Shown here one piece after another: positions 3,867 through 59,825 of a DNA stretch of 64,000 nt; within the stretch, counting starts at the first letter, position 1, and each line of letters opens with the position of its first letter. The stretch is from positions 3,224,001-3,288,000 of the forward strand of contig NC_043018.1 in the NCBI RefSeq assembly GCF_006345805.1, read 5' to 3'. The notes below the pieces were generated by a model. It saw only the letters and a program-made list of their open reading frames with translations. It made no database searches and was not told the origin of the DNA. The stretch is from Octopus sinensis. Taxonomy: Eukaryota. The translations under genes and the position numbers were made by a program.

Positions 3867-4520
3867 ATATATGCGTGTGTATGTTTGTGCGTCTATATTT
3901 GTCCCCCTAGCATTGCTTGACAACCGATGCTGGTGTGTTTATGTCCCCGTTACTTAACGGTTCGGCAAAAGTGACCGATAGAATAAGTACTGGGCTTACA
4001 AAAGAATAAGTCCTGGGGTCGAGTTGCTCGATAAAAGGCGGTGCTCCAGCAAATGACTGAAACAAGTAAAAGAGTAAAAGAGTAAAAGAGAATATGGAAA
4101 ATTCTAGAAGGGGTAGTGCCTAATTTTCGGCATTGAGAGATGTACAAATACCAGAACCGGCCGCCATTGTATTGTACCTAAGGAACCATCCACTCCACCT
4201 AAATTCATGAGCAGGCACTGCAATAGTCTAGGGTTCAAAGGGTCTCAGCTCTTCAATACCATGCCACAAAAATTAAGAAATTTGGTTAAGGTGAATGTAG
4301 ATGTCTTCAAAAAGGAGCCAGACATCCTCCTCTCCAAAATACCGGATGAACTAACAGTCCTACGAGGGCAGCGGAATCAAACTCCCTTATACACCAAATG
4401 GGCGAACAGCTGCTACAAAGGCGCGTACAGGAGTAGTGATGTGAAACCAGAATGACGAAATTAAACTGACCACATTGGTGCTCCAGCATGACCACAGCCG
4501 CATGGATGAAACATGTTAAA
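3560..4520 (+). mobile_element. CR1/L2-like LINE 3' RT fragment interrupted by a SINE
   Basis: Reads MSYRDRVRKLQPYSMEQRRERYAI ... WKILEGVVPNF ... FKGSQLFNTMPQKLRNL..DVFKKEPDILLSKIPDE, typical of a CR1-type C-terminus. Confidence 0.65.
3651..4090 (+). mobile_element. tRNA-derived SINE family A, full length
   Basis: A box TGGCTGTGTGG, B box GGTTCAGTCCC, internal (TA)n, tail (AAGAGTAA)n. Confidence 0.9.
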
Positions 4521-11877: not shown

Positions 11878-12411
11878 ACAACCACGCACACACATACACA
11901 CATCTATAGAGTAAGCGCAAGGAGATGACATAAATGTGTGAGTACGTATGTGAATATATGTGACAGTGTGTGAATGTCGGTGTGTGTGTGTGTGTGTGTG
12001 TGTGCACAATTTGAATCAATCGTTTGTTTCAGAAATCCTTTCGCACAGAAGAGTATATCTATAAATTTTAGCCAATGTGGAATCTTACAGAAAGATATAC
12101 AATGCATTGCTTCCATATACAATATGTTCATAATGATACGAACAGGGATCATCTATTCACAATACCAAGTTTAGAAACGGCATCTCCGAACAACGAAAGC
12201 CGATGGCCACCAATGGAAGCTCAGGAATGGCTTGAAATTTATCCGTAAATACATACATTTTTTTTCTCACCCACAAAAAATTTCGTGTATAGAGAAAATG
12301 TTTTTGTAACCAGATATTCTATAGCATTTCCACAACAATTTATAGATATGAAGTAATACAGAACAGCATATATCTATCTGTCTTCTTATATCGATCTACC
12401 TATGTGTGTGT

Positions 12412-12754: not shown

Positions 12755-12821
12755 CATATATATATATATATATGAAAAACCAAGTCAAAAATAGAAAATG
12801 CTAAAATAATTTTATAGTGAA

Positions 12822-12869
12822 CATTTCAGTACCGGTTTCGGTCATTTTGAGACCTTTTCAACTGTAACG
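12822..12869 (-). ncRNA. Hammerhead ribozyme motif, U3-A8 variant (minus-strand copy)
   Basis: Exact reverse complement of 13891-13938. Confidence 0.7.
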
Positions 12870-13574
12870 ATTAAATAATTAAATTTAGAAAAATTAGAAG
12901 AAAAGTTTTTTTAAAAAGAATATTTCTATAGTAGTGTTCAGATTTAAGTGGCATTCTGCCTTTCTCTGACTCCCTTGTTTGCACTTGTGTGTCGGAGGTC
13001 GTTGTGAGTTCTTGGAAGGGTAGTAGAGGAAGAAGGCTGGTGGGGAAAGGGGGATGGGAGAATCTGGGAGTGCCCTGATGGTCGTTGGCAGTCTCAGTTC
13101 AATTCAGGAGAATATTTATATTGACAGGCTTGTTTATAGAATTAGCGTAGGTGTTATACTAAAAAACATTAGTGACAAAGTTAAGGGGTAGGGGTGGAGA
13201 AGTAGAAGAAGAAGAAGAAGAAGAAGAAGAAGAAGAAGAAGAAGGAGAAGGAGAAGATGACGATGATGGTGGTGGTGGTGATGATTATGACGACGATGAT
13301 GATGATAATGATGATGATGAAGAAGAAGAAGAAGAAGAAGAAGGAGGAGAAGGAGAAGATGGTGGTGATGATGGTGGTGATGATGATGACGACGATGATG
13401 ATGATAATGATGATGATGAAGAAGAAGAGAAGAAGAAGAAGAGAAAAACAGAGAGGGGGAATATGAATGGGTGTAAGTATAGCTATGAAGGGGCTGATTA
13501 GTAATGGATTCTATGGAGTGTAATATTTGTGTGTGTATATATATATTTTTCTTTTATTCTAAAGTTGAGGTATA

Positions 13575-13673
13575 TTAATTGTTTGTCGTAGACCCGTTTA
13601 GAAGTGGCTTGTATTTTGTAATAAAGAGATTTTCTTTACTTATTCGTTGTCTCGAGGTTGTATCGTCCCTAAA
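13575..13673 (-). pseudogene. C-terminal fragment of a Penelope-type GIY-YIG endonuclease
   Basis: Manual translation FRDDTTSRQRISKENLFITKYKPLLNGSTTNN* fits the R-xx-KE-xx-FI-xx-YKP-xLN end of GIY-YIG domains. Confidence 0.65.
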
Positions 13674-13890
13674 ATACGACCATCAGGGCACTCCCAGATT
13701 CTCCCATCCCCCTTTCCCCACCAGCCTTCTTCCTCTACTACCCTTCCAAGAACTCACAACGACCTCCGACACACAAGTGCAAACAAGGGAGTCAGAGAAA
13801 GGCAGAACCCACTTAAATCTGAACACTACTATAGAAATATTCTTTTTAAAAAAACTTTTCTTCTAATTTTTCTAAATTTAATTATTTAAT

Positions 13891-13938
13891 CGTTACAGTT
13901 GAAAAGGTCTCAAAATGACCGAAACCGGTACTGAAATG
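13891..13938 (+). ncRNA. Hammerhead ribozyme motif, U3-A8 variant
   Basis: CGUUACAG-UUGAAAA-GGUC ucaaaau GACC-GAAAC-cg-GUA/CUGAAAUG: stem I 7 of 8 pairs, 4-bp stem II, palindromic ACCGGU stem III. Confidence 0.7.
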
Positions 13939-14021
13939 TTCACTATAAAATTATTTTAGCATTTTCTATTTTTGACTTGTTTTTTCATATATTCAACTCG
14001 TGTGTTCCTTTTCACCCTTAT

Positions 14022-14097
<76 letters not shown>

Positions 14098-21082: not shown

Positions 21083-21469
21083 AATTGGTGTTTTTTGTTG
21101 TTGTTGTTATTGTCGTTGTACTTGGTTTTATCAATGTTGTCTTTGCTCTTCTCCTCGTTGCTTGGAGTCTTCCTCCTCATGTCGATGCTGTTGTTGTTGC
21201 TGTTGTTTTCGGTGCCGTTGTTGTTTTTTGATTTTTGTTGTTCTTGTAATTCTTTGTGCTCGTTTCCATTTTGTTCTTATTAAACTCCTTTTTTTTGTGA
21301 TGCTTGTCCTTTTTTTGTTTTCATTTTTATTTCTTCTCTCGTCCCTCTACCTGCTGTTTTCGTTGTTATTTTCCTCATTATCCTTCTTCGCGTGGTTTTT
21401 GCTTTCTTCATCACCGTTCTTTATTGTTCGAGTAATAATATTTTACAGACATTTTGTCATTGTTTAACA

Positions 21470-22655
21470 CTGACTGTGGGGCAGCTGCCGTGGGAGCTGT
21501 TGCTGTGGGAGCTGTGGCTGTGGGGCAGTTGCCATGAGAGTTGTTGCTGTGGGAGCTGTCGCTGTGGGGCAGTTGCCATGAGAGTTGTTGCTGTGGGAGC
21601 TGTGGCTGTGGGGCAGTTGCCATGAGAGTTGTTGCTGTGGGAGCTGTCGCTGTGGGGCAGTTGCCATGAGAGTTGTTGCTGTGGGAGCTGTCGCTGTGGG
21701 GCAGTTGCCATGAGAGTTGTTGCTGTGGGAGCTGTGGCTGTGGGGCAGTTGCCATGAGAGTTGTTGCTGTGGGAGCTGTGGCTGTGGGGCAGTTGCCATG
21801 AGAGTTGTTGCTGTGGGAGCTGTGGCTGTGGGGCAGTTGCCATGAGAGTTGTTGCTGTGGGAGCTGTCGCTGTGGGGCAGTTGCCATGAGAGTTGTTGCT
21901 GTGGGAGCTGTGGCTGTGGGGCAGTTGCCATGAGAGTTGTTGCTGTGGGAGCTGTGGCTGTGGGGCAGTTGCCATGAGAGTTGTTGTTGTGGGAGCTGTG
22001 GATGTGGGGCAGTTGCCATGAGAGTTGTTGCTGTGGGAGCTGTGGCTGTGGGGCAGTTGCCATGAGAGTTGTTGCTGTGGGAGCTGTGGCTGTGGGGCAG
22101 TTGCCATGAGAGTTGTTGCTGTGGGAGCTGTGGCTGTGGGGCAGTTGCCATGAGAGTTGTTGCTGTGGGAGCTGTCGCTGTGGGGCAGTTGCCATGAGAG
22201 TTGTTGCTGTGGGAGCTGTGGCTGTGGGGCAGTTGCCATGAGAGTTGTTGCTGTGGGAGATGTGGCTGTGGGGCAGTTGCCATGAGAGTTGTTGCTGTGG
22301 GAGCTGTGGCTGTGGGGCAGTTGCCATGAGAGTTGTTGCTGTGGGAGCTGTGGCTGTGGGGCAGTTGCCATGAGAGTTGTTGCTGTGGGAGCTGTGGCTG
22401 TGGGGCAGTTGCCATGAGAGTTGTTGCTGTGGGAGCTGTGGCTGTGGGGCAGTTGCCATGAGAGTTGTTGCTGTGGGAGCTGTGGCTGTGGGGCAGTTGC
22501 CATGAGAGTTGTTGCTGTGGGAACTGTCGCTCTGGGAGCAGTTGCCATGAGAGTTGTTGCTGTGGGAGCTGTGGCTGTGGGGCAGTTGCCATGAGAGTTG
22601 TTGCTTTGGGAGCTGTCGCTCTGGGAGCAGTTGCTTTAGGAGCTGTTGCTGTGGG
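21470..22655. repeat. 44-bp minisatellite, about 25 near-identical copies
   Basis: Unit GCTGTGGGGCAGTTGCCATGAGAGTTGTTGCTGTGGGAGCTGT(G/C); the 44-aa period in the ORF track equals three units. Confidence 0.95.
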
Positions 22656-59275: not shown

Positions 59276-59825
59276 CAGGGTTATTCATAATGAATGAACC
59301 GATTCATTACGCAATATTTTAATAAGGAAGAGCAATAGAAAACTCCCGCGAAGTCACAAGTATTTACTCACAATCAATTTTTATTTCCTGTCTTACAACT
59401 GTTGAATGTGGCCACAACCTACCGCAAAGGCAACATCAATGCGATAAGAAAATTCCTCCCAGGCGCATATCAGCATATCAAGATCCACTGAGTTGATCGC
59501 TGTTGTTATTCGATGTTTAAGTTCATCGAGATCAGTGGGTAGCGATGGAACATAAACGCGATATTTTACAAATCCCCACAAGAAAAAAATCACATAACAG
59601 CGATCAACTCAATGGAGCGTGATATGATGATACGCGTCGAGAAAGAATTTTCTTACCGCATTGATGTTGCCCTTGCTGCAGGTGGTGGCCACATTGAACA
59701 CTTGTAAGACAGGAAACAGAGGTTGTTTGTGAGTAAATACTCGTGACTTAGCTGGAGTTTTCTATTGCTTTACCCTATCAAAATATTGCGTAAGGAAATC
59801 TGTTCACTCTCTTTTGAATAACCCT

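What the first reader, a model, noticed from the sequence alone, without database searches (positions are those of the whole stretch)
12769..14020. Young Penelope-like insertion whose hammerhead has a U3-A8 covariant core
Seen: ~316-bp almost identical inverted arms, a GIY-YIG-like C-terminus (13575-13673, minus) in the spacer, a ~28-nt unpaired tail, and in both arms a hammerhead with core UUGAAAA instead of CUGANGA. Established: C3-G8 is a Watson-Crick pair in the active hammerhead fold, and U3-A8 is a tolerated compensatory variant. Inference: the double change argues for selection on catalysis and would be missed by standard CUGANGA searches. This copy links the HHR fold-backs directly to PLEs.
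Basis: partly seen in the sequence, partly recalled or inferred. Interest (0 to 1): 0.8.

Follow-up and report, generated by a model that had tools for sequence, protein, structure and literature searches.

The report
Neptune retrotransposon fragment with variant hammerhead
This is a short, folded-back leftover of a common jumping gene (a Penelope-like retrotransposon) whose ends carry a predicted self-cutting RNA motif with a swapped base pair; the swap is real and shared by the whole family, but it has been described before, so the copy is ordinary.

Summary
Window 12769-14024 is a head-to-head, 5'-truncated insertion of a young Neptune-type Penelope-like element (PLE) in (TA)n. The arms align over 317 nt with 2 mismatches and 1 indel. 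One arm has the PLE tail. The 32-aa peptide is identical to the end of siblings' RT + zinc-linker + GIY-YIG frame. Both arms hold a type I minimal hammerhead with U3-A8. U3-A8 is the family state (2007 motifs; C3-A8 8, U3-G8 3, C3-G8 0) and also that of an older subfamily. Between the two, the ribozyme changed only by one compensating stem II pair (2/31 columns vs 30/133 flank, p=0.03). Across related PLEs positions 3 and 8 always pair (34 motif clusters: C-G 18, U-A 13, A-U 2, U-G 1), and U3-A8 switches at least 4 times on the RT tree. Selection on the pair is therefore supported, but by comparison across families, not by this copy. U3-A8 in nature (2011) and in PLE hammerheads (2014), tails and inverted copies are all published. 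This copy encodes no enzyme and its ribozyme would be buried in the hairpin. Verdict: new member of a known kind; low interest.

The parts
12769..13673 (-). Long, tailless 5'-truncated copy of the element's 3' end (ORF end, 3' UTR with GAA/GAT tracts, pseudo-LTR with hammerhead)
   Evidence: Collinear with siblings over the whole length; private 22-nt deletion at 13085/13086
13575..13673 (-). Last 32 codons and stop of the RT-GIY-YIG frame
   Evidence: 32/32 identical to residues 717-748 of L034:4673-6916, which hits RVT_1 (E 5.5e-8) and GIY-YIG (E 2.7e-4, just under the Pfam cut-off)
12827..12864 (-). Type I minimal hammerhead, U3 = 12861, A8 = 12856, predicted cut after 12830
   Evidence: Motif scan; position mapping
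13671..13673 (.). Head-to-head junction, 3-nt AAA microhomology shared by both copies
   Evidence: Long copy matches the sibling ORF up to 13673 and the short copy from 13671
13671..13992 (+). Short inverted 5'-truncated copy (pseudo-LTR part)
   Evidence: 98.6% to sibling L044 over 354 columns including the tail
13896..13933 (+). Type I minimal hammerhead: stem I 13896-98/13931-33, core 13899-13905 (U3 13899, A8 13904), stem II 13906-09/13917-20, GAAA 13921-24, palindromic stem III 13925-28, UH 13929-30
   Evidence: dimer fold with 6-bp intermolecular ACCGGU helix III predicted
13993..14024 (+). PLE tail (28-34 nt), present on one arm only; in tandem siblings it runs on towards the ORF1 start codon
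12752..12768 (.). Left (TA)n target flank; with 14025 onward a possible target-site duplication of CACA(TA)n
   Evidence: Direct reading; edges blurred by the microsatellite, so only suggestive
14025..14095 (.). Right (TA)n target flank

Best explanation
This is a 5'-truncated, head-to-head double copy of the 3' end of a young Neptune-type Penelope-like retrotransposon in a TA microsatellite, and both arms inherited the family's hammerhead motif, whose U3-A8 pair likely does the job of the usual C3-G8 pair and is likely kept by selection in the active master elements, not in this copy. Shown: the parent unit is about 4.3 kb (hammerhead, tail, ORF1 of 411 aa, T-TTT-TTA overlap into a -1 frame with RT, CX4CX2C linker and GIY-YIG, then 3' UTR and hammerhead again). 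Inferred, from the published in vitro work on a lizard PLE: the element's protein nicks both strands of the (TA)n target and starts cDNA at two fixed sites 28-34 nt apart on the RNA. One cDNA carries the tail and one does not, each stops at a random length, and they are joined head to head through a few matching bases. Inferred: in master transcripts the hammerhead folds as a dimer through palindromic ACCGGU, perhaps with protein help, and cuts after A17. In this copy a transcript through both arms would bury it in a 317-bp hairpin, with only one ribozyme per strand.
For: Sibling frames with RT and GIY-YIG (homologues). Tandem siblings show hammerhead-tail-ATG and a 4325-nt unit. Linker spacing CxxC-to-C is 24 aa (motif, sequence), like the Neptune rows (25-27) and unlike the Nematis rows (about 7-8) of Fig. 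S2 of PMC8557442 (counted by eye). Exactly one tail in 29 of 32 head-to-head pairs; 2 are tandem continuations and 1 is a regex miss that BLAST shows tailed. 67 of 75 ends are followed by at least 8 nt of alternating TA, 4 by tandem element, 4 by other DNA. U3-A8 2007 vs C3-A8 8, U3-G8 3, U3-U8 2, U3-C8 1, C3-G8 0. An older subfamily (982 motifs; RT pieces about 70-89% identical in the best segments) keeps U3-A8. Majority letters differ at 2 of 31 ribozyme columns (G10.1-C11.1 to A-U, compensating) vs 30 of 133 flank columns, p=0.029 (29 vs 29 copies). In 91 loci of related PLEs, 82 hammerhead hits, all with pairing 3/8 letters, 0 in the reversed control; 34 clusters; 0/500 shuffles reach the pairing. 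U3-A8 needs 5 changes, at least 4 forced. Literature.
Against: No cleavage was measured and no transcription shown. Within each subfamily the ribozyme columns decay as fast as the flanks (0.56% vs 0.52%; 4.9% vs 5.6%), as expected for dead copies. The core alone (0 of 11 changed) is not significant (p=0.069). The monomer fold is no more stable than shuffles (z -0.63). U3 can mispair with A17 in the predicted folds, and none of 13 related U3-A8 clusters has A17, so this ribozyme may be weak. In the lizard PLE, hammerhead mutants still inserted in vitro and no reads ended at the cut site. Many of the relatives come from one assembly series and the tree is the quick one. The direction of the change on this lineage is unresolved: closer relatives include both C3-G8 (L247, L249, L318) and U3-A8 (L245, L322).
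Confidence: 0.85

Rival explanations
1. Same element, but the hammerhead is kept as a folded RNA signal (protein-binding or priming scaffold next to the reverse-transcription start sites), and self-cleavage is weak or irrelevant.
For: Hammerhead mutants of the lizard PLE still insert in vitro and need protein to cleave. PLE minimal hammerheads cleave poorly. U3-A17 mispairing is predicted. The older subfamily tolerates A10.1-U11.1.
Against: The 3-8 pair is a tertiary contact of the catalytic fold, and it covaries through four letter pairs across PLE families. The GAAA and UH letters are kept across the two subfamilies. A pure scaffold would not obviously need them.
Confidence: 0.25
2. U3-A8 is neutral drift towards AT in an AT-rich family whose ribozyme is dead, carried along by one successful master copy.
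For: No C3-G8 sister lineage in this genome; core-only test not significant; both changes go towards A/T.
Against: Two subfamilies about 23% apart in the flanks keep it, with a compensating stem II change. 0 of 34 related clusters carry a non-pairing 3/8 combination, though 31% would be expected if independent (ignores relatedness).
Confidence: 0.07
3. The fold-back arose by self-priming or template switching of one cDNA on an antisense template rather than by two primed cDNAs.
For: Proposed for rotifer PLEs with palindromes at the junction (PMC3846280). The other fold-back family in the window has a fixed palindromic junction.
Against: Here junction positions and arm lengths vary freely, either arm can be the longer, and the window's junction has only a 3-nt match and no palindrome. 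The one-tail rule matches the two start sites and two-strand extension seen in vitro.
Confidence: 0.25
4. The inverted repeat is an assembly artefact of long reads.
For: Sibling copies show many single-base indels.
Against: The arms differ in private changes and in the tail, the same one-tail layout recurs in 29 of 32 pairs, and it is the published PLE layout.
Confidence: 0.02

Closest known systems
Neptune clade of endonuclease-positive Penelope-like elements (PMC8557442: passages and part 54 of the supplement read)
   Same: C-terminal GIY-YIG after RT, CX2-5CxxC linker with long spacer, (TA)n targets, partial tandems, inverted 5'-truncated copy, tail on one end, hammerhead near the 3' end; an ORF1 set off by a frameshift is listed for PLEs in the Fig. 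1 legend (the legend does not say which clade and the figure was not seen).
   Different: This window holds only a truncated double 3' end. No strong hairpin follows the slippery site (MFE -2.1), whereas the legend mentions a pseudoknot. Family not matched to a named Repbase entry (not testable here).
Minimal type I PLE hammerheads, including the U3-A8 variant of Schistosoma Cercyon elements (PMC4209133: parts 1-2 of 4 of the text read; 2 supplementary files searched, 1 not searchable)
   Same: Located in the pseudo-LTR, short palindromic stem III implying dimers, G10.1-C11.1, U3-A8 core.
   Different: No extra base between positions 9 and 10.1, 4-bp stem II, A at position 17, and high copy conservation in a young family (like the D. 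virilis case in that paper).
Natural U3-A8 hammerheads (PMC3088659: passages read)
   Same: Same covariation, stated there to be active in vitro citing Przybilski and Hammann 2007 (that paper was not held; not read).
   Different: The passages read do not tie those examples to PLEs.
PAc Poseidon element of Anolis (PMC11167929: parts 1-2 of 4 read)
   Same: Two reverse-transcription start sites define the tail; both target strands cut and extended; AT-rich target; hammerhead just upstream.
   Different: PAc has C3-G8, its ORF starts inside the hammerhead and it starts at sites without target homology. Here the ORF1 ATG lies 155 nt after the core and both element ends fall in alternating AT that matches the (TA)n target.
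Non-LTR retrozymes (bioRxiv 10.64898/2026.07.22.740005: part 1 of 5 read)
   Same: Type I hammerhead related to PLE pseudo-LTRs.
   Different: Retrozymes are tandem head-to-tail repeats without coding DNA; this copy is inverted and keeps the ORF end.

Membership tests
Endonuclease-positive Penelope-like element | RT domain followed by C-terminal GIY-YIG endonuclease | tested here: met
   Sibling L034: RVT_1 227-414, GIY-YIG 652-739 (21.6 bits vs cut-off 22.6); DKG, YLDD, IY..YIG motifs; window peptide identical to its end
Endonuclease-positive Penelope-like element | Pseudo-LTRs from partial tandems, inverted 5'-truncated copy, 30-40 nt tail on one end | tested here: met
   Tandems in L003, L008, L035, L125; one tail in 29 of 32 head-to-head pairs
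Endonuclease-positive Penelope-like element | Spliceosomal intron in or near the pseudo-LTR (optional) | tested here: inconclusive
   TTACAG just before the core resembles an acceptor as in D. virilis, but no spliced joint appeared in contigs of 4 runs whose RNA status is only guessed or unknown
Neptune clade | CX2-5CxxC linker with long spacer between RT and a C-terminal EN | tested here: met
   CGRPNCGIC at 614; 24-aa spacer vs 25-27 in Neptune and about 7-8 in Nematis rows of Fig. S2 (by eye)
Neptune clade | Placement in the RT tree with reference Neptune elements | not testable with these tools
   No named reference PLE proteins were available from the tools; the tree holds unnamed relatives only
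Neptune clade | (TA)n insertion preference | tested here: met
   67 of 75 ends flanked by at least 8 nt of alternating TA; flanks printed for 18 fold-backs
Type I minimal hammerhead ribozyme | Core NUGANNA / GAAA / UH with three stems and a paired 3-8 contact | tested here: met
   U3-A8 pair; covariation across relatives
Type I minimal hammerhead ribozyme | Palindromic stem III able to form a dimer helix | tested here: met
   ACCGGU duplex -10.3 kcal/mol; dimer -27.1 vs monomer -9.8; prediction only
Type I minimal hammerhead ribozyme | Self-cleavage after H17 | not testable with these tools
   Needs an assay; contigs cannot show RNA ends
Rfam hammerhead families | Reaches the gathering score | tested here: not met
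   0 matches in the window; this bears on Rfam's models, not on the fold
Non-LTR retrozyme | Head-to-tail tandem non-coding repeats each with a hammerhead | tested here: not met
   Inverted layout with ORF remnant

The most novel reading that the evidence does not exclude
Every fold-back of this family is made by twin priming: the two nicked strands of a (TA)n target each anneal to one of two short AU-alternating stretches on element RNA just downstream of the hammerhead. This one rule would explain the (TA)n targeting of Neptune elements, the tail on exactly one arm and the inverted repeats, and the U3-A8/A17 hammerhead would be a deliberately damped ribozyme that leaves these priming sites attached.
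Probability: 0.3. Interest if true: 0.55.

Novelty: new member of a known kind. Interest (0 to 1): 0.24.

Why it matters
The copy itself changes nothing known. The family is a handy test bed: about 2000 near-identical ends plus an older subfamily allow clean counts of the one-tail rule and of selection on a PLE hammerhead. The survey of relatives suggests non-CUGANGA cores are common, not rare, among these PLE hammerheads (16 of 34 motif clusters), including A3-U8 and U3-G8, so core-restricted searches undercount them. If twin priming through AU stretches is right, it would settle how PLE tails and inverted repeats form.

Tried and rejected
Rfam scan: no match. Three C3-G8 copies (L106, L107, L110) first looked like an ancestral sister lineage; full counts showed the older subfamily is U3-A8, the three are scattered on the tree and one has a U3-A8 partner arm: rejected. 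The idea that the two arms came from different family alleles: the arm differences are private, so untestable here. The first subfamily comparison was biased by motif selection and was redone on copies found by DNA similarity. Sequencing runs: no RNA holder listed on record; contigs of 4 runs showed no intron-like joint and no variant at core positions 3 or 8 among the rows shown, 100 rows hidden: no evidence either way. No pseudoknot-like hairpin after the slippery site (a plain fold cannot show a pseudoknot). No PDB relative of the RT frame. No Pfam identity for ORF1 or for three possible host exons, so host-gene context is unresolved. No hammerhead found downstream of L243, L244, L248, L254, L260, L319. 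Tree: quick method; 11 of 91 loci were dropped for short matches, 40 of 45 rows without a hammerhead were left out, and L303 was relabelled by hand to its nearest motif. Papers not held: Przybilski and Hammann 2007, Lunse et al. 2017, Arkhipova et al. 2017; they, and the unsearchable supplement file of PMC4209133, may already report A3-U8 or U3-G8 PLE cores and the frameshift in Neptune. Earlier findings of this scan: none returned.

Full report
Observation. The region reads as described. Arms 12768-13085 and 13676-13992 align over 317 columns with 2 mismatches and one indel. Each holds CAG-TTGAAAA-GGTC(TCAAAAT)GACC-GAAA-CCGG-TA-CTG, a type I hammerhead layout with U3 and A8; the predicted cut is after 13930 (+) and 12830 (-). 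Rfam finds nothing in the window. The exact pattern has 2007 matches in the 2.7-Gb genome and 0 for its reversed control.

What the DNA is. A search with the right arm gave siblings mostly at 97-99% (44 matches among 40 scored of 2382 candidates). In them the minus-strand peptide extends into a frame with RT and GIY-YIG; L034 hits RVT_1 and, just under the cut-off, GIY-YIG, and the window's 32 residues are identical to its end. The frame has a CX4CX2C linker followed by a 24-aa spacer, like the Neptune rows and unlike the Nematis rows in Fig. S2 of PMC8557442 (by eye). Tandem siblings show the full order: hammerhead, 62 nt, tail, ORF1 start; the unit is 4325 nt with a 411-aa ORF1 in L125. ORF1 overlaps the RT frame at an in-frame T-TTT-TTA in 11 of 11 distinct loci that hold the junction (13 rows, 2 duplicates), and the same heptamer is in phase in 4 of 20 relatives examined, many of the rest being too short. 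The best 120 of 469 homologous proteins are 557-803 aa long, in line with a separate RT frame. A frameshifted ORF1 is already listed for PLEs.

Anatomy of this copy. The 'spacer' is the continuation of the left arm: 12769-13673 is one tailless 907-nt 3' fragment on the minus strand, and 13671-14024 is a second, tailed fragment on the plus strand, joined at a 3-nt AAA overlap. The left copy has a private 22-nt deletion that sets the apparent arm edge. In 32 head-to-head pairs, 29 have exactly one tail; 2 are tandem continuations and 1 was a pattern miss. Loci L118-L134 were picked without regard to tails and show the same; L002-L030 were picked with a tailed query. Either arm can be the longer. 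67 of 75 ends run into (TA)n. This is the layout described for PLEs (PMC8557442; PMC3846280), and PMC11167929 ties the tail to two reverse-transcription start sites and shows both target strands cut and extended. I infer two primed cDNAs joined head to head; self-priming is the rival. Both element ends fall in alternating AT stretches of the element itself, which suggests annealing to the target; this is untested and differs from the lizard element.

Is U3-A8 the family state? Yes: 2007 U3-A8, 8 C3-A8, 3 U3-G8, 2 U3-U8, 1 U3-C8, 0 C3-G8 in the same context (A3 and G3 were not counted). An older subfamily with a shorter loop II has 982 motifs, of which 45 have G8 and 21 have C3, with 3 having both. 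That is 3 against 0.96 expected (p=0.067); the three are scattered and one has a U3-A8 partner arm. So no C3-G8 sister lineage was found in this genome, and the double change is older than both subfamilies.

Is there selection? Between subfamilies (29 vs 29 copies found by DNA similarity), 2 of 31 constrained ribozyme columns differ, and they are the two sides of pair 10.1-11.1; 30 of 133 flank columns differ by substitution (p=0.029); the core alone is 0 of 11 (p=0.069). Within subfamilies the ribozyme decays like the flanks. In 91 loci of related PLEs from metagenome and MAG contigs, a scan with free letters at 3 and 8 gave 82 hits, 81 on the coding strand: C-G 41, U-A 29, U-G 7, A-U 5, none non-pairing, and 0 in reversed sequence. 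They fall into 34 clusters (18, 13, 1, 2), against 69% pairing expected if independent; a hand-picked alignment of 21 distinct rows is 100% paired, 0/500 shuffles. On a quick RT tree of 40 rows, U3-A8 needs 5 changes, at least 4 forced by strong branches. Caveats: many rows come from one assembly series, and shuffles ignore relatedness. The pair is thus under selection across PLEs, and U3-A8 is a frequent, recurrent state.

How the ribozyme would work. Stem III is 2 bp and palindromic; two copies are predicted to form a 6-bp ACCGGU helix (-10.3 kcal/mol; dimer -27.1 vs monomer -9.8), the dimer mode described for PLE hammerheads. Predicted folds pair U3 with A17; A17 is fixed in both subfamilies but absent from the 13 related U3-A8 clusters, so activity may be low. 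In this copy a read-through transcript of either strand folds the hammerhead into the long hairpin. Nothing here shows transcription or cleavage (searches were uninformative).

Prior art. PMC3088659 reports natural U3-A8 covariation and cites its activity in vitro (passages). PMC4209133 reports U3-A8 in PLE hammerheads, missed by its first descriptor, with about 1,300 hits. A text search for U3-A8 or C3-G8 spellings returned 2 papers; I found no statement on A3-U8 in PLEs, but three key papers were not held.

Verdict. New member of a known kind; interest 0.24.

Noticed in passing
window about 2020-2440: A second, different fold-back family in (TA)n with a canonical CUGAAGA hammerhead (2298 +), about 170-nt arms, a palindromic junction near 2262 that recurs at the same place in many copies, and one longer tailed arm. 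71 matches among 40 scored candidates, mostly 95-98%; no RT link of its own in 20 loci. Likely a non-autonomous PLE derivative copied as a unit.
   Followed up: partly
L292:5252, L294:2688, L317:3051, L272:1969: PLE relatives whose hammerhead has an A3-U8 core (ATGATTA, ATGAGTA), repeated in tandem pseudo-LTRs; not found in the papers I could search.
   Followed up: partly
L276:7496, L280, L281, L283:9626: A PLE family with a fixed U3-G8 wobble core (7 hits).
   Followed up: partly
L125 (minus strand, near 3998), L034:4590-4600, L243, L244, L245, L248: Conserved in-frame T-TTT-TTA between ORF1 and the RT frame, a candidate programmed -1 frameshift without an obvious downstream hairpin.
   Followed up: partly
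window 13865-13898 (+): CTAAT ... TTACAG directly before the core looks like a branch point and splice acceptor overlapping stem I, as described for D. virilis Penelope; no spliced joint seen.
   Followed up: partly
L085-L114: 120 canonical hammerhead-like motifs (CUGANGA, RGUC..GACY, GAAAC) across the genome, most of those viewed diverged and solitary, without RT nearby.
   Followed up: no
L065-L079: A CUGACGAGAGGC hammerhead family in tandem and inverted copies about 355 nt apart, retrozyme-like.
   Followed up: no
window 59303-59797: Older inverted repeat (202-nt arms, 85%) between TA runs, no hammerhead hit and no match to fetched loci.
   Followed up: no
window 12072-12245 (+): Possible host exon (AG...GT, 58 open codons) 520 nt upstream; no Pfam identity. 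If real, the insertion may be intronic.
   Followed up: partly
L318-L333: PLE RT genes, several with hammerheads, sit in contigs filed under bacterial MAGs, probably host contamination.
   Followed up: no
window 21343-22654: 44-nt tandem array of about 25 or more units at 97-98%.
   Followed up: no
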